Below are positions 1,498 through 10,357 of a DNA stretch of 10,357 bases, piece after piece. How positions within the stretch are numbered: position 1 is the stretch's first letter; each line of letters starts with the position of its first letter. Position numbers and translations under genes: made by a program. The notes under the pieces are model-generated. The model was not told the origin of the DNA, searched no databases, and saw only the letters and a list, made by a program, of their open reading frames with translations. The stretch lies in the UHGV virus genome UHGV-1710816. One strand, 5' to 3'. This stretch comes from a virus.

Positions 1498-1777
1498 TCA
1501 GTAACCTCGTGATGGTTTTCTCGCGCTGTGCTTCACGTTTCGCGGCGTTCTCCAGTTCCTGACGCAGTGCCACCTGCGCCAGCTCGTTTTTGTCTGCCCT
1601 GGTGAGTGCAACATGAAGCTGATTTTTCAGCATGGTGATGGTCGTCTGCTGCCCACTGGCGACATTGTTCGCCCTGTCCAGCGAGGCGCGCAGGCTGGCA
1701 TTTTTGTGTTTCACCAGAAACAGCCCCGCCAACGCCAGCGATAACAACACGACCAGCACAGTCATCAGCCTTGACAT
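1352..1777 (-). CDS. lysB: LysB, Rz-like inner-membrane spanin
   Basis: 141-aa ORF with N-terminal transmembrane segment MSRLMTVLVVLLSLALAGLFLV followed by a charged, helix-prone region. ATG 1777-1775 overlaps the end of lysA by 13 nt. Confidence 0.88.
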   Translation of the reverse strand: MSRLMTVLVVLLSLALAGLFLVKHKNASLRASLDRANNVASGQQTTITMLKNQLHVALTRADKNELAQVALRQELENAAKREAQREKTITRLLNENEDFRRWYGADLPDAVRRLHQRPACTDASDCPQRLPESEPLPDAGQ

Positions 1778-2190
1778 GGTTTCCGCCCCTCAAGACGCTG
1801 GCGGCAGGCCGTATGCATCAACCGGAAAAATAGCGACGCCACAAGATAAATCAGCGCGGTAAAAATCCACCCGGCGGCGACCAGCGAGATAAACGTCGCC
1901 ACCATCACCACCAGACCCACCGCCCGTCTGCACCACGTCACCGGCTGCAAAAACAGCGACGTGACAATCTTCACGGCCAGCGATTCCGGCGGCAGCTCCC
2001 GCCCGTAGCGTTCAAGTACATACTCAGTGGCATACACGCCGACACCACCGGCAACCACACAGATAACCGTCGCCAGAATCGCCCAGGCAGCGACAAAACT
2101 GACGGCCACGCTCTGCGGGTAAATCAGGGACAGTGCCAGCATCAGCGCCAGCAACACGTTCAGCATCAGTGAAAGGGATAATTTCTTCAT
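1765..2190 (-). CDS. lysA: LysA, multi-pass membrane protein of the lysis cassette (lysis-timing/antiholin-like)
   Basis: 141-aa very hydrophobic ORF with several predicted TM stretches. ATG 2190-2188 is preceded by GGAG. Position between K and lysB matches P2. Confidence 0.88.
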   Translation of the reverse strand: MKKLSLSLMLNVLLALMLALSLIYPQSVAVSFVAAWAILATVICVVAGGVGVYATEYVLERYGRELPPESLAVKIVTSLFLQPVTWCRRAVGLVVMVATFISLVAAGWIFTALIYLVASLFFRLMHTACRQRLEGRKPCQG

Positions 2191-2204
2191 GGTGTTTACT
2201 CCGT

Positions 2205-2702
2205 TTAAGCCGGTACGCCGCCAGCGGTACGCCAGACGGTGACCAGTTTTTCCAGTGGATGCTCACGCTGACCGTAACCGGCACCCGGCAGGGACGCCCA
2301 GATATTGCGACAGCGTGAAATGGCGCGCTCAATGCGTCCCGCCCGGATGTCATCCAGTGCACCGCGTTCGCGGATCAACTGAATGGCGAGCCTGTCCTGT
2401 GACAACGGACTGAAATCCGGCAGGGCAAGCTGTTTGCGGTAATGCGGCCAGAACAGGTAAAGCTGCTGATAGCGACCGGAGGCCGTGGATTTTTCACCGC
2501 GACGGTTAAACACCTTCGCCGGTCGGCCATGCGCGAACGGGTGGTCACTGTAGTCGGTGAAAATTTCCGGCTTCCCGTCCAGTCCGGTGACTATCACGTC
2601 ATAGCCACGGTTTTTCGTCAGCGGATGATTCGCCGTCCCTTCGGACACGGCCAGCATGTCGAGAAAGGCGGCGATATTCTGATGCGTGTTAATTACCGGC
2701 AT
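2205..2702 (-). CDS. K: Endolysin K (lambda R-type lytic transglycosylase family)
   Basis: 165-aa ORF; N-terminus ...AAFLDMLAVSEGTANHPLTKNRGYDVIVTG... and C-terminus ...NIWASLPGAGYGQ... align by eye with lambda R, including the catalytic-Glu motif SEGT. ATG overlaps the Y stop (TAATG). Confidence 0.92.
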   Translation of the reverse strand: MPVINTHQNIAAFLDMLAVSEGTANHPLTKNRGYDVIVTGLDGKPEIFTDYSDHPFAHGRPAKVFNRRGEKSTASGRYQQLYLFWPHYRKQLALPDFSPLSQDRLAIQLIRERGALDDIRAGRIERAISRCRNIWASLPGAGYGQREHPLEKLVTVWRTAGGVPA

Positions 2703-2983
2703 TACTGTTTCCCCCTGCCCTTAAAACGGCGCTGAATGGCAATCTCAATCACCTGATAACCGGCGATACCCAGCATGGAGCCGATGCCGCACACCGCAGG
2801 CAGCGACAGGTCAGGAAACTGCACCAGAACAACACCGGCAACCATCGAGACAAAACCACCGAGCAACATGCGCCCGATAAACAGACGCGGGGTGATGGGT
2901 TCACCACCGGCAAGCACCTTGCCGACAACAATCAGCACCCCAATCATGAAAAGCGACAGGACGCTTTTTTCTTCTGCTGTCAT
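2702..2983 (-). CDS. Y: Holin Y
   Basis: 93-aa ORF with hydrophobic TM segments and a basic C-terminal tail (QRRFKGRGKQ); GGGAG Shine-Dalgarno upstream; sits immediately upstream of the endolysin as in P2. Confidence 0.9.
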   Translation of the reverse strand: MTAEEKSVLSLFMIGVLIVVGKVLAGGEPITPRLFIGRMLLGGFVSMVAGVVLVQFPDLSLPAVCGIGSMLGIAGYQVIEIAIQRRFKGRGKQ

Positions 2984-2986
2984 GCG

Positions 2987-3190
2987 TTACTCCCACAGAT
3001 TGACAGTTTCAGCCACGGGCGCGGTCTGAACGTCGGGCAGTTCGACGGCGGTGCCGTGTGGCAGCACCGCACCCAGTTCAGCCAGTCCCGGATTTGCGGC
3101 GAGCACGGCTTCGACCACGCCCTCAGTGCGCCCGTAATACCGGACACAAATGGCGTCGAGCGTGTCGCCCTGTAGCGCAAAGGTCTTCAT
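2987..3190 (-). CDS. X: Tail protein X (LysM-like small protein)
   Basis: Internal ATG at 3190-3188 gives 67 aa MKTFALQGDTLDAICVRYYG...NPGLAELGAVLPHGTAVELP, a LysM-like pattern. It overlaps the L stop as TGATG. The ORF-track 90-aa version is an in-frame upstream extension. Confidence 0.85.
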   Translation of the reverse strand: MKTFALQGDTLDAICVRYYGRTEGVVEAVLAANPGLAELGAVLPHGTAVELPDVQTAPVAETVNLWE

Positions 3191-3699
3191 CAGATTTGAC
3201 TCACGATGCAGCGCGGCTTGTCCTGGATACGCGCCACCGCCCAGCGCATATCCCGCCACAGCTCATCAATGGTGCTGTCAATGCTGTCAGCCTTCTTGTC
3301 GCCTTTCGCACTGGCATCCACGCCGCGATAACGCTCATAAAGCGACGCGGTCGCCATCGCACACACGGCGCGCTCGTAGTAAAAAACTTTGATGCTTTCA
3401 CCGTCGATATCGTCCGCCGGGACGTCCGCCAGACGCGTAAAACCGGCGGCAATTTTCTGTTCGCGGTACTCGTACAGCTCCGCATTCGTCTCCGCCATGC
3501 CTGACTTGATGGCCTCACGCAGACGAGCGGGGGCGACGGTCTGCTCAAGGCGCATACGTTCCCGGACGCGCTTCGGGTCGATATCGGGGAAAAAGAACGT
3601 GTTTTTAATCACCGGCTCGTCGCCTGCCGGTTGCGGGATGACCACCGTACCCTCACCGGACACGGGAGCCTCCTTTCGCGGAATAATCAGCGTCATCAT
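3190..3699 (-). CDS. L: Head completion/stabilization protein L
   Basis: Internal start MMTLIIPRKEAP... at 3699 with GAGG upstream gives 169 aa, the size of P2 gpL. The ORF-track 189-aa form adds an unsupported upstream extension. Confidence 0.88.
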   Translation of the reverse strand: MMTLIIPRKEAPVSGEGTVVIPQPAGDEPVIKNTFFFPDIDPKRVRERMRLEQTVAPARLREAIKSGMAETNAELYEYREQKIAAGFTRLADVPADDIDGESIKVFYYERAVCAMATASLYERYRGVDASAKGDKKADSIDSTIDELWRDMRWAVARIQDKPRCIVSQI

Positions 3700-3798
3700 G
3701 ACTACCTCTGAAAAGTCGGGCGGTGGACGCCGGTGCAGTGTCAGGTGATTCACCCTCACTGACCGGCGTGCCGCCCTGGCGCGGGGCGCATTCGGTTG

Positions 3799-4542
3799 TT
3801 AACTGGCTTTCTTTTTCGGGCGTCCACGTTTTGCCGGTGTCACGCTCCGGGTCTTACGCGGGGCGCGGGTGGCCGCTTTTGGCTGCGGCTCCGGCTTCGG
3901 TTTCAGCTCCCGCTCCAGTCGTTCAATCTCTTTTTTGACGCCTGCCTGACAGTCGAGCTGTGTCGCACGTTGCAGGTGCGCCAGCGCACCTGCGGCATCA
4001 CCACCGTCACGCAGAAACAGACCGGTGATTTTGTGCAGCTTTGCGCGCACTTCATCAGGCATGTCAGCCGTGGCGGTCAGTTCAAGGGTGTCCGTCAGCA
4101 GGCGGGTATCCACAGACTCACCGGCAGCGTGGGCGCGCATGGCCGCGAGCGCCACCTCCTCGGTGAACATGTACGGCGGGGTGCGGCGGTGTTTACCCGG
4201 CATGGTCAGACCGTACTTCAGGGCATAACGGGCAATCTCCAGCGCACCGGCAATATCGCCGGTATCCAGACGCCACAGCATGATCGTCATCAGAATGTCA
4301 TCCTGTGCACCTTTGCCCTGCTCCAGCACGCCGTTCACCCACGGCAACCAGAACGGCAGCAGTTCGCGTTTTTTCGCGGCCTTCAGCTCTTTTGAATAAA
4401 TCGCTTTCAGTGTGCGCTGGTCTGCGGCCAGCTTGACCAGCATCTGCTCATAGACAGTTGCATGTCGCAGCGGGGCGGCTTCCCGCTGCGCGGTCATCGC
4501 TGCCGAGACCCGCATCATGTGGCGCTGTGCGGGACTCGTCAT
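3799..4542 (-). CDS. M: Terminase small (endonuclease) subunit M
   Basis: 247-aa ORF MTSPAQRHMMRVSAAMTAQ... with a basic C-terminal tail; ATG 4542-4540 lies 3 nt after the N stop and has GGGAG upstream. Confidence 0.9.
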   Translation of the reverse strand: MTSPAQRHMMRVSAAMTAQREAAPLRHATVYEQMLVKLAADQRTLKAIYSKELKAAKKRELLPFWLPWVNGVLEQGKGAQDDILMTIMLWRLDTGDIAGALEIARYALKYGLTMPGKHRRTPPYMFTEEVALAAMRAHAAGESVDTRLLTDTLELTATADMPDEVRAKLHKITGLFLRDGGDAAGALAHLQRATQLDCQAGVKKEIERLERELKPKPEPQPKAATRAPRKTRSVTPAKRGRPKKKAS

Positions 4543-4545
4543 CGG

Positions 4546-5619
4546 TTACGCTCCCGGCTCTGCGGTCGCTTTAGCCGGTGTGGAGAAATCACCGACCTTA
4601 ATTTTTTCCACCAGACAACCGGCGGCGTAGTCTTCCACCACGTAATCAATGTTCATTGACTCGTAGTTCTCCACGCGGTCGAGTTTCGGGTTTTCCTCAA
4701 TCACGCGGCGATGGCTGTCATCCATGTAGTAGATGGACAGGTTTTCCAGCTTCGTGATGAGCATCGCATCCGCCGGGAAGTACGGGACGCGTACCGCCGG
4801 CAGGTTACCGATGCGTTTCTGGCTGATGATGACGTCAGCGGCCAGCATTTCGCTGTTGTCCTGCTCCTTGTTGACGATGGGGAAATACTTGTCCGCCAGT
4901 AGCTGACGCCCCACAATCACCACAAGGTCAGGGTCTTCCTGATACCACGGCTCAATCAGGTTGTTGGTCGCATCCATCACCAGTGCATCGAGGCTGGCAT
5001 AATCACCGCCCTTACCCACGCGGATGACCTCAGAGGTCGTGTGACCTTCTTCGTCAGTAACCTTGCTCATCACGCGCGCCGGGGCTTCATTGCGGTATTT
5101 CTGCAGCCAGCCGACCGCCACATCCTGCAGCATCTGGTTACTGCTGCGGTCAGAGGTTTCGGCACGCCTCACGCCGTTAAAACCGGCCATGATTAAATCA
5201 AGGGACTGGCGTTTGATAATGGCGTTACGGACACGGAGCTGGAAGTCCTGATAACGCGCCCACAGGTCAAGCGTTTTGTAGCGGATATAAAAATCGAAGT
5301 TAATCTGGTCGCATTCGTACTTGTTTGACGCCAGCTTCGAGAAGTCCTTCGGCTGACGCTCGGTGCCACCGGCGGTGTCTGTGGTGCTGGCGATGGAGCC
5401 GGTGACACCAATACCAATTTTTTCCCCTTTCATTTCGCTGACCGGCACAATGTTGATGCGGGTCAGAAAGTCAGAGGACTCCTGCATGGTGTTCATCAGG
5501 GTCTGGGTGACCGACGGTTCAACGGTGAATTTTTTCGACACATCACCGGCGTCGATGCCGTTCAGTTCGGCAACACGGGACAGGTAGGCATTAAATTTAA
5601 AGCGGGTTTCCTGGCGCAT
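4546..5619 (-). CDS. N: Major capsid protein precursor N
   Basis: 357-aa ORF MRQETRFKFNAYLSRVAELNGIDAG...; AGGA Shine-Dalgarno 6 nt upstream; size and position match P2 gpN. Confidence 0.93.
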   Translation of the reverse strand: MRQETRFKFNAYLSRVAELNGIDAGDVSKKFTVEPSVTQTLMNTMQESSDFLTRINIVPVSEMKGEKIGIGVTGSIASTTDTAGGTERQPKDFSKLASNKYECDQINFDFYIRYKTLDLWARYQDFQLRVRNAIIKRQSLDLIMAGFNGVRRAETSDRSSNQMLQDVAVGWLQKYRNEAPARVMSKVTDEEGHTTSEVIRVGKGGDYASLDALVMDATNNLIEPWYQEDPDLVVIVGRQLLADKYFPIVNKEQDNSEMLAADVIISQKRIGNLPAVRVPYFPADAMLITKLENLSIYYMDDSHRRVIEENPKLDRVENYESMNIDYVVEDYAAGCLVEKIKVGDFSTPAKATAEPGA

Positions 5620-5677
5620 AGTTTTTCCTGAAATTAAGGGTTAATCGTGAAGGTTTTCCCGGACTGGCTGACGCCGG

Positions 5678-6532
5678 TCAGCAGTTCGTCATCAGGGCGT
5701 CACCGCCACCGCCGGTGGCCTTGCTGCGGCGCTGCTGGGTCAGACTTTCGGTGTGGTCGAGACTGTTTTTCAGGCGGCTGAATGCCTGGCTGGTTTCATC
5801 CGCCCTGTCAGTCACCTCCTGCTTAAGTGCGGAAAAGGCGGTTTCCATCTCAGCGAGTCGCTGCTCAGTGGCGCTCAGCTTTTCCTGCACATGTTCAGCA
5901 ACAGCGGTCACCGCTTCATGCACGTCATTCAGACGGGCGTCATCGCTGGCCTGTTTGCGGCCAAAAATGGATTTCACCTTTTCGGTCAGGGCGGTGAACA
6001 CGGTTTCAGGCAGGTCTTCAAATTCCAGCTCAACAGGCGTTGCCACTGAAATCAGGTTTTCAGGGCTTAATTTGAAGCGGTTCAGGGGGTTGTGTTTTGC
6101 CGTGCGGCAGAATTCCAGGTATTCCGTGCCGAGGCTTGCCGGGTCATCGGTGACGGCCAGCCCCACCAGATAACATTTGCCGGTGTTGGCAAAGTTCGGC
6201 TGAATTTCCATTGAGGTGTAGACCTTCTGCGCGGCCTTGTTCATCGCGATAAGGTCATCGGTCGGGGTGATTTTCGCAAACAGCGCCCATTTGCCTTTCA
6301 GCGCCGAATCATCGTCAATCTTTTCGGCCTTCAGTTCGGCCACATCGCCATAACGCTTAAAAATACCGTCAGGCAGGATGCCGCGCAGATGTTCCAGGTT
6401 AATGCGGCAACCATAGACACGCGGGTCAAAGGTTTCGGCCATTTCCTGAATATCCTGCGCACTGATGACACGCCCGTCACAGGTGTCACCCTCAACGCCG
6501 ATACGAAAGAATTTTGAGACTTTTTTTGCCAT
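5678..6532 (-). CDS. O: Capsid scaffolding protein O
   Basis: Start at ATG 6532-6530 (MAKKVSKFFRIGVEG...) with AGGA upstream gives 284 aa, the size of P2 gpO. The ORF-track 306-aa form is an upstream extension. Confidence 0.9.
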   Translation of the reverse strand: MAKKVSKFFRIGVEGDTCDGRVISAQDIQEMAETFDPRVYGCRINLEHLRGILPDGIFKRYGDVAELKAEKIDDDSALKGKWALFAKITPTDDLIAMNKAAQKVYTSMEIQPNFANTGKCYLVGLAVTDDPASLGTEYLEFCRTAKHNPLNRFKLSPENLISVATPVELEFEDLPETVFTALTEKVKSIFGRKQASDDARLNDVHEAVTAVAEHVQEKLSATEQRLAEMETAFSALKQEVTDRADETSQAFSRLKNSLDHTESLTQQRRSKATGGGGDALMTNC

Positions 6533-6705
6533 TGTCAGGAGTCCTGAATAGTGATTAGAGGAGTCACATGTCGGCATCAGTTTCCCGACGATGCGCATCC
6601 TCCGCCATCAGTCCCGGATGGCTTATCACTGACACAACAGCACCTTAGCGAATCGCGGGGCGCGACTCAGTAGCCTTGCCGTGTATTCATCACGGCGAGG
6701 TATTC
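6533..6705. promoter_or_regulatory. Divergent intergenic region expected to hold the late promoters for the O operon (leftward) and P-Q operon (rightward)
   Basis: 173 bp of non-coding DNA between divergent O and P starts. Contains inverted repeats GTCGG-N10-CCGAC (6570-6589) and GCCATC-N7-GATGGC (6604-6622) and a 9/10 direct repeat GTATTCAT(C/G)A (6683-6692, 6700-6709). No perfect TGT-N12-ACA activator site was found. Confidence 0.6.
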
Positions 6706-8478
6706 ATGACCATCACCACAGACACCACTCTTTTACACGACCCGCGTCGTCAGGCGGCGCTGCTGTACTGGCAGGGGTTTTCCGTGCCGCAGATTGCCGC
6801 CATGTTGCAGATGAAACGCCCGACGGTGCAGAGCTGGAAACAGCGCGACGGCTGGGACAGCGTTGCCCCCATCAGCCGTGTCGAAATGAGTCTGGAAGCG
6901 CGGCTGACCCAGCTCATCATCAAACCGCAGAAAACCGGCGGTGACTTCAAGGAAATTGACCTGCTCGGACGCCAGATTGAACGACTGGCACGGGTAAACC
7001 GCTACAGCCAGACCGGCAACGAGGCAGACCTTAATCCGAACATCGCTAACCGCAACAAAGGCGGGCGTCGCAAACCGAAAAAGAATTTTTTCAGCGACGA
7101 GGCTATCGAAAAGCTGGAGCAGATTTTCTTTGAGCAGTCTTTCGACTATCAGTTGCACTGGTATCGCGCCGGGCTTGAGCACCGCATCCGCGATATCCTG
7201 AAATCCCGCCAGATTGGCGCGACGTTTTATTTTTCCCGCGAGGCGCTGCTGCGCGCCCTGAAAACCGGTCATAACCAGATTTTTCTGTCGGCCAGTAAAA
7301 CGCAGGCGTATGTGTTCCGCGAATACATCATCGCCTTTGCCCGGCTGGTTGACGTTGACCTGACCGGTGACCCGATTGTCCTGGGCAATAACGGCGCAAA
7401 ACTGATTTTTCTCGGCACCAACTCCAACACCGCACAGAGCCATAACGGCGACCTGTACGTCGACGAGATTTTCTGGATCCCGAATTTTCAGGTACTGCGT
7501 AAGGTGGCATCAGGTATGGCCTCACAGAGTCACCTGCGTTCGACCTATTTCTCCACCCCGTCCACGCTGGCGCACGACGCCTACCCGTTCTGGTCAGGTG
7601 AACTGTTCAACCGGGGACGCGCCAGCGCCGCCGAACGCGTGGAAATCGACGTCAGTCATAACGCCCTTGCCGGTGGGCTTCTCTGTGCGGACGGCCAGTG
7701 GCGGCAGATTGTCACCATTGAGGACGCCCTGAAAGGTGGCTGCACGCTGTTCGACATTGAGCAGCTCAAACGTGAAAACAGCGCCGACGATTTTAAAAAC
7801 CTGTTCATGTGTGAATTTGTTGACGACAAGGCGTCGGTGTTCCCGTTCGAGGAGCTGCAACGCTGCATGGTCGACACGCTGGAAGAATGGGAAGACTATG
7901 CGCCGTTTGCCGCGAATCCGTTCGGCTCCCGCCCGGTATGGATTGGTTACGACCCGTCACACCGTGGCGACAGCGCCGGATGCGTGGTGCTGGCACCACC
8001 GGTGGTGGCCGGTGGCAAATTCAGAATACTTGAGCGTCACCAGTGGAAAGGCATGGACTTTGCCACCCAGGCGGAATCCATCCGCAAACTCACCGAAAAA
8101 TACAACGTCGAATACATCGGAATTGATGCCACCGGCCTCGGTGTCGGCGTGTTCCAGCTCGTGCGCTCGTTCTATCCCGCCGCGCGCGATATCCGCTACA
8201 CGCCGGAAATGAAAACCGCAATGGTGCTCAAGGCAAAAGACGTTATTCGCCGTGGCTGTCTGGAATATGACGTCAGCGCCACCGACATCACCAGCTCGTT
8301 TATGGCTATCCGCAAGACCATGACCAGCAGCGGACGCAGCGCCACCTATGAGGCCAGCCGCAGCGAGGAAGCCAGCCACGCCGACCTCGCCTGGGCGACC
8401 ATGCACGCTCTGTTAAATGAGCCACTCACCGCCGGTATCAGCACCCCGCTGACATCCACCATTCTGGAGTTTTACTGA
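6706..8478 (+). CDS. P: Terminase large (ATPase) subunit P
   Basis: First ATG at 6706 with GAGG 5 nt upstream gives 590 aa MTITTDTTLLHDPRRQAALLYWQGF.... The ORF-track start at 6676 is a TTG extension. The stop overlaps the Q start (TGATG). Confidence 0.92.
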   Translation: MTITTDTTLLHDPRRQAALLYWQGFSVPQIAAMLQMKRPTVQSWKQRDGWDSVAPISRVEMSLEARLTQLIIKPQKTGGDFKEIDLLGRQIERLARVNRYSQTGNEADLNPNIANRNKGGRRKPKKNFFSDEAIEKLEQIFFEQSFDYQLHWYRAGLEHRIRDILKSRQIGATFYFSREALLRALKTGHNQIFLSASKTQAYVFREYIIAFARLVDVDLTGDPIVLGNNGAKLIFLGTNSNTAQSHNGDLYVDEIFWIPNFQVLRKVASGMASQSHLRSTYFSTPSTLAHDAYPFWSGELFNRGRASAAERVEIDVSHNALAGGLLCADGQWRQIVTIEDALKGGCTLFDIEQLKRENSADDFKNLFMCEFVDDKASVFPFEELQRCMVDTLEEWEDYAPFAANPFGSRPVWIGYDPSHRGDSAGCVVLAPPVVAGGKFRILERHQWKGMDFATQAESIRKLTEKYNVEYIGIDATGLGVGVFQLVRSFYPAARDIRYTPEMKTAMVLKAKDVIRRGCLEYDVSATDITSSFMAIRKTMTSSGRSATYEASRSEEASHADLAWATMHALLNEPLTAGISTPLTSTILEFY

Positions 8479-9512
8479 TGAGCAAGAAAAAAGGGAAAAC
8501 ACCGCAACCTGCGGCAAAAAAAATGACTGCCAGCGCCCCGAAAATGGAGGCATTCACCTTTGGTGAGCCGGTGCCGGTGCTCGACCGCCGTGACATTCTG
8601 GATTACGTCGAATGCATCAGTAACGGCAGATGGTATGAGCCGCCGGTCAGCTTTACCGGTCTGGCAAAAAGCCTGCGTGCTGCCGTGCATCACAGCTCAC
8701 CGATTTACGTCAAACGTAATATTCTGGCCTCGACATTTATCCCGCATCCATGGCTTTCCCAGCAGGATTTCAGCCGCTTTGTGCTGGATTTTCTGGTATT
8801 TGGTAATGCATTTCTGGAAAAGCGTTACAGCACCACCGGTAAAGTTATCAGGCTGGAAACCTCACCGGCAAAATATACCCGCCGTGGTGTGGAAGAGGAT
8901 GTTTACTGGTGGGTGCCGTCCTTCAACGAGCCGACAGCCTTCGCGCCCGGCTCCGTGTTTCACCTGCTGGAGCCGGATATTAATCAGGAGCTGTACGGCC
9001 TGCCGGAATATCTCAGCGCCCTTAACTCTGCCTGGCTGAATGAGTCGGCCACGCTGTTCCGCCGCAAGTATTACGAAAATGGCGCACATGCCGGATACAT
9101 CATGTACGTCACTGATGCCGTGCAGGATCGCAACGATATCGAAATGCTTCGCGAAAACATGGTCAAGTCGAAAGGCCGCAACAACTTTAAAAATCTGTTT
9201 CTCTATGCCCCGCAGGGGAAAGCCGACGGCATTAAAATTATCCCGCTCAGTGAAGTGGCAACGAAGGACGATTTTTTTAATATCAAAAAAGCCAGCGCCG
9301 CTGACCTGCTGGACGCGCACCGCATCCCCTTTCAGTTGATGGGCGGCAAGCCGGAGAACGTCGGGTCGCTGGGTGATATTGAGAAAGTGGCAAAGGTCTT
9401 TGTCCGCAATGAACTTATCCCGCTACAGGACAGGATCCGCGAGATAAACGGCTGGCTCGGTCAGGAGGTCATCCGCTTTAAAAACTACTCACTGGACACT
9501 GACAACGGCTGA
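8478..9512 (+). CDS. Q: Portal protein Q
   Basis: 344-aa ORF MSKKKGKTPQPAAKKMTASAPKMEAFTFGEPVP...; size and position next to cos match P2 gpQ; start coupled to the P stop. Confidence 0.92.
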   Translation: MSKKKGKTPQPAAKKMTASAPKMEAFTFGEPVPVLDRRDILDYVECISNGRWYEPPVSFTGLAKSLRAAVHHSSPIYVKRNILASTFIPHPWLSQQDFSRFVLDFLVFGNAFLEKRYSTTGKVIRLETSPAKYTRRGVEEDVYWWVPSFNEPTAFAPGSVFHLLEPDINQELYGLPEYLSALNSAWLNESATLFRRKYYENGAHAGYIMYVTDAVQDRNDIEMLRENMVKSKGRNNFKNLFLYAPQGKADGIKIIPLSEVATKDDFFNIKKASAADLLDAHRIPFQLMGGKPENVGSLGDIEKVAKVFVRNELIPLQDRIREINGWLGQEVIRFKNYSLDTDNG

Positions 9513-9515
9513 ACA

Positions 9516-9540
9516 TCGCCGCCTGCGGGCGGCTTTTTTA
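9516..9540 (+). terminator. Rho-independent terminator ending the P-Q operon
   Basis: GCCGCC (9518-9523), tetraloop TGCG, GGCGGC (9528-9533), then TTTTTT (9534-9539), starting 6 nt after the Q stop. Confidence 0.75.
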
Positions 9541-9681
9541 CAACCCGCCATCACGCCCTCACACGCTCACCACCGCACAAAACATCCCACAGACACACCA
9601 ACGCCCCGGCGAACAATCTAAACGCCATCACGACGCGCTCAGGCGCTGAAAAAATAAAATCAGCACCACCGCCAGCGCGCA

Positions 9682-9700
9682 GTGCTTTCCCCGCCTCGCC
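9682..9700 (-). other. cos: cos: P2-type 19-nt cohesive-end sequence, uncut
   Basis: Plus strand reads GTGCTTTCCCCGCCTCGCC; its reverse complement GGCGAGGCGGGGAAAGCAC is the P2/P4 cohesive-end sequence as I recall it. It lies about 170 bp beyond the Q stop. Confidence 0.85.
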
Positions 9701-9841
9701 CGCCCGCTTCATGGGGCGGTTTTAATGCAGGTGCATCACCCCCCCGGCAAGCGCCTGTTCTGGTGCTCGCTGTCAAAAGATATATTTGAAAATGAATGCA
9801 AATTTATGCACCTAATGCAGGCGAGGCTAAAAAGAACATCT

Positions 9842-10234
9842 TTAGTTTGTTTTTTTAACTCCACTGTATTCCGCTATCATCCTCTCAACCGCTGGAAGCA
9901 ACTCAGCAGGAACGCAAATAGACCTATCTGCCTTTCCAACATCTTTTGGCGTTTTGTAAGTACCATTATAATTAAGGACGCATTCTTTAAGAATTTCAAA
10001 AAGAGAAACAATAGGGTCCACGCCATAGCTATCAATAAACTTTCGATAGCCATCATTATCAGATAACGATGAAATATCTCCATGAACAAACTTACACCTA
10101 AGCTCATAGATTATTCCTATTTTTGAATCAATATCAATAATTTTCGCCGCATCTCTGCAAACACCGCCAATAATTGAATTTTTATTACCATTATTGGTTC
10201 CATACATAGCATCCAATGCTATAAATTGATTCAA
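9842..10234 (-). CDS. Hypothetical protein in an AT-rich island next to cos; possible accessory/defence cargo, family not recognised
   Basis: 130-codon ORF in a region far more AT-rich than the flanking phage genes. The track start is a TTG at 10234-10232 with AAAGG just upstream; the first ATG is 9 codons further in (10207). An in-frame stop lies upstream at 10306-10304. The composition is protein-like but I cannot assign a family. Confidence 0.45.
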   Translation of the reverse strand: MNQFIALDAMYGTNNGNKNSIIGGVCRDAAKIIDIDSKIGIIYELRCKFVHGDISSLSDNDGYRKFIDSYGVDPIVSLFEILKECVLNYNGTYKTPKDVGKADRSICVPAELLPAVERMIAEYSGVKKTN

Positions 10235-10357
10235 AAACCTTTCACGTTTGTCATCCCTCCACCCGTGCGCTATAAAGGAAAGAGCAGTCTGAGACAGGTG
10301 CAGCTACAACAATCATCAGTGGTCTTGCAGTTGGTATGAAATCAACAGCTATCCCGC

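What the first reader, a model, noticed from the sequence alone, without database searches (positions are those of the whole stretch)
9776..10245. AT-rich island with an unassigned ORF directly beyond cos, at the known cargo position of P2-like phages
From about 9776 to 10245 the sequence becomes markedly AT-rich, while the phage genes to the left and the last 110 bp of the window are GC-normal. The island holds one protein-like ORF (9842-10234, minus strand; MNQFIALDAMYGTNNGNKNSIIGGVCRDAAKIIDIDSKIGIIYELRCKFVHGDISS...). The cos-proximal end of P2-like genomes is where P2 carries old and tin, and it is a recognised variable slot for anti-phage genes. I do not recognise the protein. It contains R-x4-H (RCKFVH), which fits the HEPN Rx4-6H pattern, but a single such match is expected by chance in a protein this size. 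The start codon is uncertain (TTG versus downstream ATG).
Basis: partly seen in the sequence, partly recalled or inferred. Interest (0 to 1): 0.65.

Follow-up and report, generated by a model that had tools for sequence, protein, structure and literature searches.

The report
Truncated HEPN cargo gene beside P2 cos
The AT-rich stretch past the phage packaging site is the last third of a 440-residue predicted RNA-cutting (HEPN) gene that some P2-like prophages carry in their known anti-phage cargo slot; here it is cut short because the contig ends in a mis-joined scrap of a gut Firmicute gene.

Summary
The AT-rich island is real: GC is 0.345, against 0.568 ± 0.027 for the phage backbone. It lies just beyond cos (9682-9700) of a P2-like prophage. 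The 130-aa ORF is not a gene of its own. It is codons 294-440 of a 440-aa protein, WP_063267205, which RefSeq names 'HEPN domain-containing protein'. In intact E. coli prophages this gene fills the whole slot between cos and replication gene A.

The window is 100% identical to E. coli strain 4/4 up to base 10287. Bases 10281-10357 are 100% identical to the hppA gene of Mediterraneibacter faecis. The contig end is therefore a chimera, and the 'GC-normal last 110 bp' is an artefact.

The gene sits in this slot in 17 of 17 IMG/VR loci and in 44 of 2153 E. coli genomes with this cos region. Rousset 2022 already listed it as P2-hotspot cargo ('HEPN_Apea'), and DefensePredictor scored it as a likely defence gene. 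I found no test of it in the held parts of either paper.

Most likely it is a single-protein abortive-infection RNase.

The parts
8478..9512 (+). Portal gene (P2 gene Q homologue). This is the last backbone gene before cos and is listed for context.
   Evidence: ORF list. RefSeq names the identical sequence in E. coli 4/4 'phage portal protein'. Pfam Phage_portal matches the homologue in L018 and L020.
9518..9533 (+). GC-rich hairpin followed by a T run (GCCGCCTGCGGGCGGC TTTTTT). It looks like the terminator of the portal gene.
   Evidence: Terminator scan on the identical L001 sequence (L001 coordinate + 1499 = window coordinate). Sequence read.
9682..9700 (.). cos cohesive-end sequence GTGCTTTCCCCGCCTCGCC, the reverse complement of the P2 19-nt cos.
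   Evidence: Exact match. The linear genome of phage fiAA91-ss starts at window 9700. That the P2 cos reads GGCGAGGCGGGGAAAGCAC is from my own knowledge.
9736..9841 (.). Start of the variable cargo slot. Backbone homology with about 2100 other E. coli prophages stops at about 9735-9743. The rest, up to 9841, is the 3' untranslated flank of the cargo gene.
   Evidence: Match end points in the spread of megablast hits. Other prophages carry different genes from this point on.
9842..10287 (-). 3' fragment of the cargo gene: codons 294-440 plus the stop codon of a 440-aa HEPN-domain protein (WP_063267205 family, PHROG 23812). It holds the whole conserved C-terminal HEPN-like domain but no start codon, no promoter and no N-terminal domain.
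   Evidence: 100% identity to E. coli 4/4 over window 1500-10287. Annotation and translation of the full gene. PHROG 23812 matched at profile positions 311-440 of 440. Family alignments A1 and A2.
10082..10099 (-). Codons for R356-C-K-F-V-H361, the HEPN R-x4-H motif.
   Evidence: R356 and H361 are the only invariant columns in the 99-sequence alignment A2. In the AF2 model the motif lies at the end of helix 345-360. Codon positions were checked against the sequence.
10288..10357 (+). Foreign tail: an internal piece of a membrane pyrophosphatase gene (hppA) of Lachnospiraceae, reading SETGAATTIISGLAVGMKSTAIP. It is joined to the phage DNA through 7 shared bases (AGAGCAG, 10281-10287).
   Evidence: No match in 5426 complete E. 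coli genomes. Bases 10281-10357 are 100% identical to [Ruminococcus] faecis JCM 15917 and two gut genomes assembled from metagenomes, and 98.7% identical to two more. The region lies inside a 675-aa hppA ORF. The PDB H+-PPase is the best match of the peptide.

Best explanation
The island is the cos-proximal cargo slot of a P2-like prophage. The ORF is the C-terminal HEPN domain of its single cargo gene, a 440-aa protein.

In this window the gene is incomplete. Residues 1-293 and the promoter are missing because the contig ends in a chimeric join to a Mediterraneibacter hppA fragment. The window therefore encodes no functional product.

In intact prophages I propose the following.
- The protein is made by the lysogen as a self-inhibited oligomer.
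- Its family-specific N-terminal domain (about 290 aa, alpha/beta) senses infection by another phage.
- Sensing releases a composite RNase site formed by R356 and H361 of paired HEPN domains.
- The enzyme then cuts cellular RNA, most likely tRNA anticodon loops as in ApeA, DARNA and PrrC. Translation stops and the infection aborts.

Shown here: the identity of the fragment, the chimera, the slot, the family, the conserved motif and a HEPN-like fold.

Inferred: expression in the lysogen, the sensor role of the N-terminal domain, RNase activity, the RNA target, and anti-phage function.

My estimates: fragment of this gene 0.98; HEPN domain 0.85; anti-phage defence 0.6; tRNA as target 0.3.
For: Fragment and chimera:
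- Window 1500-10287 is 100% identical to E. coli 4/4, where the ORF is the end of a 1323-bp CDS.
- Bases 10281-10357 are 100% identical to Mediterraneibacter faecis hppA.

Slot:
- cos lies at 9682-9700.
- The gene lies between gene A and cos/portal in E. coli 4/4, in two Enterobacter-type contigs and in 17 of 17 IMG/VR loci.
- Only 44 of 2153 E. coli genomes that share this cos region carry it. Three other prophages I looked at hold ImmA plus a hypothetical protein, ParB-N plus Dcm, or two kinases plus PP2C.

Real protein:
- dN/dS is about 0.17.
- There are 26 clusters across Enterobacteriaceae, Serratia, Vibrio, Shewanella, Pseudoalteromonas and Idiomarina.

HEPN:
- R356 and H361 are the only invariant columns in 99 relatives at about 15% identity, and most relatives read R-N/S/C-x-L-x-H.

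Defence:
- The gene moves as a cassette between different cargo slots. These are the cos slot, the V-S slot in Serratia, a Vibrio island next to CBASS and HEPN_RES/RES, and a Pseudoalteromonas integrative island with SLFN_AlbA_2 and Ymh.
- DefensePredictor gives it a mean log-odds of 8.53 against a cutoff of 4 (cutoff from PMC13586616).
- Rousset 2022 lists it among P2-hotspot systems.
- ApeA and DARNA show that single-protein HEPN systems work this way.
Against: - I found no experimental test of this protein in the literature I could search.
- Pfam, NCBIfam and PADLOC 2.0.0 give no hit for it or for any of 99 relatives.
- The N-terminal domain has no interpretable fold match, so the sensing step is a guess.
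- Another 'Putative HEPN' from the P2 slot (pFR103, a different protein) showed no activity against Rousset's phage panel. Cargo at this slot is not always defensive; about a quarter of P2-like phages carry a partition-like system there.
- I found no convincing promoter upstream of the intact gene.
Confidence: 0.6

Rival explanations
1. The 130-aa (or 121-aa) ORF is a small stand-alone HEPN gene that starts at the TTG or ATG inside the window.
For: A gene caller did call a 121-aa product from the ATG on a related Logan contig. Minimal HEPN toxins of about 130 aa exist in the PDB.
Against: That Logan contig ends 2 bp upstream of the ATG, so the call is an end effect. Homology to the 440-aa protein runs 53 bp past the TTG. 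Most IMG/VR loci carry the full-length gene: 15 of 17 match from residue 1, and the other two are cut off by the contig end. Either start would remove part of the first conserved HEPN helix (306-321, ERFLNQFIALDAMYG).
Confidence: 0.02
2. The junction at 10287/10288 is biological. In the source genome the HEPN gene was truncated by recombination with, or insertion of, Firmicute DNA.
For: There are 7 bp of microhomology at the join, plus a nearby shared TAAAGGAA. Illegitimate recombination uses such short matches.
Against: Both sides are 100% identical to their separate sources, E. coli 4/4 and Mediterraneibacter faecis. Only 70 bp of foreign DNA are present, and they sit at the very end of the sequence. 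The junction is absent from 5426 E. coli genomes, IMG/VR and the JGI metagenome contigs. Both organisms are common in the human gut, which fits a chimeric read or a mis-join.
Confidence: 0.04
3. The full-length protein is a self-contained toxin or addiction module that stabilises the prophage, or a general stress-responsive RNase. It is not an anti-phage sensor.
For: HEPN domains are the toxins of HEPN-MNT toxin-antitoxin pairs, which are the top fold hits (8xdj, 5yep, 7ae2). P2 cargo includes maintenance functions such as partition-like systems.
Against: There is no MNT or other partner gene in the slot. In E. coli and Enterobacter prophages the gene is the only cargo. Its 290-aa N-terminal domain and single-gene layout match sensor-effector fusions such as ApeA and DARNA. 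DefensePredictor scores it 8.53.
Confidence: 0.15
4. The gene serves the phage's own lytic cycle or counter-defence, for example by degrading host RNA or cyclic-oligoadenylate signals, rather than excluding other phages.
For: Some HEPN nucleases degrade cyclic oligoadenylates (stated in the DARNA preprint). The gene lies directly downstream of the early gene A on the same strand, with an 83-bp gap, so read-through transcription during lytic growth is possible.
Against: Homologues also sit in non-phage defence islands next to CBASS and RES. The gene is present in only about 2% of related prophages, so it is dispensable for the phage. Characterised occupants of this slot in P2 itself (old, tin) exclude other phages; I know this about tin from memory, and one search lists a preprint on OLD.
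Confidence: 0.1

Closest known systems
ApeA (Gao_Ape), a single-protein HEPN anti-phage system
   Same: It is a single gene with an N-terminal non-catalytic region and a C-terminal HEPN domain carrying R-x4-H. It is found in P2/P4 hotspots. Two published HH-suite analyses link WP_063267205 to Apea-like HEPN: Rousset's label 'HEPN_Apea', and DefensePredictor at probability 80.7% over 8.6% of the query. ApeA aborts infection by cutting tRNA anticodon loops.
   Different: ApeA is about 580 aa, almost all-helical, with N, Mid and a 250-aa split HEPN domain carrying insertions. This protein is 440 aa, with an alpha/beta N-terminal region and a compact HEPN of about 150 aa. Neither it nor any of 99 relatives hits Pfam HEPN_Apea, Pfam ApeA_NTD1 or any PADLOC model, which I assume include ApeA. 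Whether it forms rings or binds deoxydinucleotides is unknown.
DARNA (PD-T7-3)
   Same: It is a single-protein HEPN abortive-infection system from E. coli. A non-catalytic domain senses infection, and the enzyme cuts tRNA anticodon loops.
   Different: DARNA has its HEPN domain at the N-terminus (R117/H122) and a helical Pds5-like C-terminal domain, which is the opposite domain order. There is no PADLOC hit.
P2 old, tin and the other catalogued occupants of the cos-proximal hotspot of P2-like phages
   Same: It occupies the same slot between cos and gene A. It has the same AT-rich, horizontally acquired character and the same one-system-per-phage variability (PMC9122126; PMC13586616).
   Different: The protein is unrelated to these. 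OLD is an ABC-ATPase plus TOPRIM nuclease (abstract listed).
Minimal HEPN toxins of HEPN-MNT toxin-antitoxin pairs (e.g. PDB 8xdj, 5yep, 7ae2)
   Different: Sequence identity is 3-7%. There is no adjacent MNT antitoxin gene, and this protein has an extra 290-aa N-terminal domain.

Membership tests
HEPN superfamily | Conserved R-x4-6-H motif | tested here: met
   RCKFVH at residues 356-361. R356 is invariant and H361 is kept in 17 of 18 close homologues. R356 and H361 are the only invariant columns in 99 relatives at about 13-20% identity.
HEPN superfamily | Four-helix up-and-down core, with the motif on the third core helix | tested here: met
HEPN superfamily | Dimerisation that forms a composite, metal-independent RNase site | not testable with these tools
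   No multimer prediction or biochemistry is available here.
ApeA (Gao_Ape) | Match to the Apea-like HEPN profile (Pfam HEPN_Apea; the ApeA model that PADLOC is assumed to hold) | tested here: not met
   hmmscan gives no hit at E <= 1 for the protein, and none at E <= 0.01 for 99 relatives. Only HH-suite-level similarity has been reported by others, and I could not rerun that here.
ApeA (Gao_Ape) | ApeA N-terminal domain (Pfam ApeA_NTD1) and an all-helical N/Mid/HEPN architecture of about 580 aa | tested here: not met
Cargo of the cos-proximal hotspot of P2-like phages | Located between cos and replication gene A | tested here: met
   E. coli 4/4, Enterobacter-type contigs and 17 of 17 IMG/VR loci. 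In the window, cos is at 9682-9700 and the gene starts 142 bp beyond it.
Cargo of the cos-proximal hotspot of P2-like phages | The slot content varies among otherwise collinear prophages | tested here: met
   Backbone homology stops at about 9735-9743. 44 of 2153 genomes carry this gene, and three other prophages carry three unrelated gene sets.
Anti-phage defence system | Protection against phage infection when expressed | not testable with these tools
   Only predictions exist: DefensePredictor log-odds 8.53. The protein is absent from the lists of tested systems that I could read.
DARNA / PD-T7-3 | N-terminal HEPN domain plus Pds5-like C-terminal domain; match to a PADLOC model | tested here: not met
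   The HEPN domain is C-terminal here. There is no PADLOC hit.
HEPN-MNT toxin-antitoxin pair | Adjacent nucleotidyltransferase (MNT) antitoxin gene | tested here: not met
   The gene is the only CDS between gene A and cos.

The most novel reading that the evidence does not exclude
The WP_063267205 family, together with about 230 distant representative clusters that share its HEPN domain, is a distinct single-protein abortive-infection system. A previously undescribed alpha/beta N-terminal domain would sense a phage cue and switch on a compact HEPN RNase. It is not an ApeA or a DARNA, and no Pfam, NCBIfam or PADLOC model covers it.
Probability: 0.5. Interest if true: 0.5.

Novelty: new member of a known kind. 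Interest (0 to 1): 0.3.

Why it matters
For this window, the main result is a correction. The 'small unassigned ORF' is a fragment, and the contig end is a chimera, so nothing functional is encoded here.

For biology, the intact gene is a reasonable candidate for an untested single-gene HEPN defence system carried by P2-like prophages of E. coli, Enterobacter and Citrobacter, with relatives in marine Gammaproteobacteria. Its HEPN domain and its N-terminal domain are both missing from the standard profile libraries, so defence annotation tools overlook it. Testing it would add one more sensor-effector pair to the growing set of tRNA- or RNA-cutting abortive-infection proteins, and might reveal a new sensing domain. 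This would be an incremental advance, not a new principle.

Tried and rejected
- Pfam, NCBIfam and PADLOC scans of the protein, the fragment and 99 relatives gave nothing meaningful. PHROGs gave only an unnamed family, 23812.
- A profile search of PDB sequences gave no hit.
- Foldseek against PDB gave nothing significant. The afdb50 library was not available.
- tblastn against 50,697 GenBank phage records gave no match, although IMG/VR prophage contigs do hold the gene.
- A second word-indexed protein search with the 99-sequence profile added only one fragment.
- Gene neighbourhoods of distant relatives (P0036, P0038, P0054, P0027) lay on short, unannotated metagenome contigs and told me nothing.
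- The exact junction sequence was not found in IMG/VR or the JGI metagenomes, so I did not identify the source contig. The closest Logan contig is a 98% variant that ends inside the gene.
- An Rfam scan of 9400-10357 found nothing.
- A promoter scan upstream of the intact gene found nothing convincing.
- DARNA, and Rousset's tested 'Putative HEPN' (pFR103), turned out to be different proteins.

Full report
**1. What is in the window**

The window carries the late genes of a P2-like phage, ending with terminase (6676-8478) and portal (8478-9512). The phage part is 97.9% identical to phages such as fiAA91-ss. Base 1 of that linear genome maps to window 9700. The 19-nt P2-type cos sequence lies at 9682-9700.

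Its composition is unusual. GC is 0.345 for 9776-10245, against a mean of 0.568 (sd 0.027, minimum 0.504) for all 470-bp windows of the backbone.

**2. The ORF is a fragment**

A megablast search against 5426 complete E. coli genomes shows that window 9500-10287 is 100% identical to a prophage present in several dozen genomes (39 records at 99% identity or more). In E. coli 4/4 the identity runs over window 1500-10287 without a mismatch.

In that genome the ORF is the 3' end of a 1323-bp gene (WP_063267205.1, 440 aa, 'HEPN domain-containing protein'). This gene is the only CDS between cos and the replication endonuclease gene A.

The window keeps codons 294-440. In the intact prophage the AT-rich block is about 1.45 kb and coincides with the whole gene.

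**3. The end of the window is a chimera**

- From 10288 onward nothing matches E. coli.
- Bases 10281-10357 are 100% identical to the membrane pyrophosphatase gene hppA of [Ruminococcus]/Mediterraneibacter faecis and of related gut Lachnospiraceae genomes assembled from metagenomes. They lie in frame inside a 675-aa ORF. The 23-residue translation finds the plant H+-PPase as its best PDB match.
- The two sources share only 7 bases at the join.
- Both sides are perfect copies of their sources. The foreign piece is 70 bp long, sits at the extreme end, and the junction is absent from E. coli genomes, IMG/VR and the JGI metagenome contigs. I therefore read it as a chimeric read or mis-join from a gut sample, not as biology.
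- This explains the 'GC-normal last 110 bp'.

A related Logan contig (98% identical) also breaks inside this AT-rich gene.

**4. The slot**

- Homology with about 2100 other E. coli prophages stops at window 9735-9743. Only 44 of 2153 genomes that share this cos region carry the gene.
- Three other prophages hold ImmA/IrrE plus a hypothetical protein, ParB-N plus a hypothetical protein plus Dcm, or two Ser/Thr kinases plus PP2C at the same place.
- All 17 IMG/VR loci that encode a homologue have it next to cos and the portal gene, with gene A upstream wherever the contig reaches that far (15 of 17). This includes Enterobacter-type phages in which the protein is 61-64% identical while gene A and portal are 74-81% identical.
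- This is the cos-proximal hotspot described by Rousset et al. 2022 (PMC9122126) and analysed again in NAR 2026 (PMC13586616).

**5. The protein**

It is a real, constrained gene. dN/dS is about 0.17 between the E. coli and Enterobacter copies, and all four copies I measured (E. coli, Enterobacter, Serratia, Vibrio) are AT-rich (GC 0.34-0.39).

The close family is small: 26 clusters in 5.8 billion proteins, from Enterobacteriaceae, Serratia, Vibrio, Shewanella, Pseudoalteromonas and Idiomarina. An exhaustive profile search finds 234 representative clusters. Most share only the C-terminal 120 residues, in proteins of 400-480 aa.

In an alignment of 99 of these at about 15% identity, the only invariant columns are R356 and H361.

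The N-terminal 292 residues fold as an alpha/beta region with no interpretable match.

Pfam, NCBIfam and PADLOC 2.0.0 recognise neither the protein nor any of the 99 relatives. PHROG 23812 covers it but has no assigned function.

**6. Context outside the cos slot**

- In Serratia the homologue sits in a different cargo position of a P2-like prophage, between V and S.
- In Vibrio it lies in an island with HNH_5, HEPN_RES/RES and a CBASS pair.
- In Pseudoalteromonas it lies in an integrative element with SLFN_AlbA_2 and Ymh genes.

A single gene that moves between cargo slots and defence islands is typical of stand-alone defence genes.

**7. What is already published**

- Rousset 2022 Table S5A lists WP_063267205 as a one-gene arrangement of the P2 hotspot, labelled 'HEPN_Apea' from HH-suite.
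- The P2 'Putative HEPN' they cloned (pFR103) is a different protein and showed no activity.
- The DefensePredictor tables give the family a mean log-odds of 8.53 and call it a 'Predicted novel defense gene'. Its only remote hit is ApeA HEPN, at probability 80.7% over 8.6% of the query. The family does not appear in the tested-system files I could read, some of which were cut when stored.

The gene is therefore catalogued and predicted, but as far as I can see it has not been tested.

**8. Mechanism**

By analogy with ApeA (tRNA anticodon cleavage, oligomeric rings, ligand-activated) and DARNA (activated by ssDNA presented by phage SSB), I propose a self-inhibited oligomer. Its N-terminal domain would sense infection and unlock a composite R356/H361 RNase site, which stops translation and aborts the infection.

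- Shown: the motif, the fold class, the slot and the mobility of the gene.
- Inferred: expression in the lysogen, sensing, RNase activity, the RNA target and protection.

It is not a member of ApeA by the tests available. There are no profile hits, the size is different, and the N-terminal architecture is different.

**9. Verdict**

The correct reading is 'truncated copy of a known, catalogued but uncharacterised HEPN cargo gene, at a chimeric contig end'. Interest is modest. The window itself holds nothing functional. The intact gene is a fair candidate for one more single-protein HEPN defence system.

Noticed in passing
window 10281-10357: The last 77 bases are 100% identical to the hppA (membrane pyrophosphatase) gene of Mediterraneibacter/[Ruminococcus] faecis. 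They share only 7 bases (AGAGCAG) with the E. coli prophage sequence. The contig end is a chimera, probably from a human gut sample.
   Followed up: yes
window 9518-9533 and 9700-9719: There are two GC-rich hairpins, each followed by a T run. One lies just after the portal stop codon. The other directly abuts the cos sequence, overlapping its last base.
   Followed up: partly
window ~9540-9660: A CA-rich tract with strong strand skew (GC skew down to -0.44, AT skew up to +0.48) lies between the portal terminator and cos. It may belong to the terminase recognition region. I did not examine it.
   Followed up: no
L014 6001-7218 (Serratia quinivorans contig): A 54%-identical homologue of the HEPN protein sits in a P2-like prophage between baseplate gene V and tail gene S, not at cos. 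A 246-aa unknown gene lies beside it.
   Followed up: partly
L010, L011 and L012, 5079-8521 (Vibrio): The Vibrio homologue is always flanked by the same 222-aa unknown protein upstream and a 374-aa HNH_5 protein downstream. In L010 it lies next to HEPN_RES/RES and a CBASS pair (SAVED plus a DncV-like protein). This may be a three-gene version of the system or a small mobile cassette.
   Followed up: no
L040 4306-6889 (IMG/VR, Enterobacter-type P2-like phage); also L039: About 2.5 kb with three extra ORFs lies between cos and the portal gene, where the window has only about 170 bp. One 221-aa ORF combines a restriction-endonuclease-like N-terminus with an RNFVCH motif. This suggests a second cargo slot on the portal side of cos.
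   Followed up: partly
L018 (Logan contig SRR12747722_77), position 1 = window 10209: An independent assembly of a 98%-identical prophage also ends inside this AT-rich gene. A 121-aa 'gene' was called from the internal ATG there. Contigs seem to break in this low-GC cargo.
   Followed up: yes
L001 15699-16788 (E. coli 4/4): The intact prophage carrying the full gene is integrated next to cpxP/cpxR.
   Followed up: no
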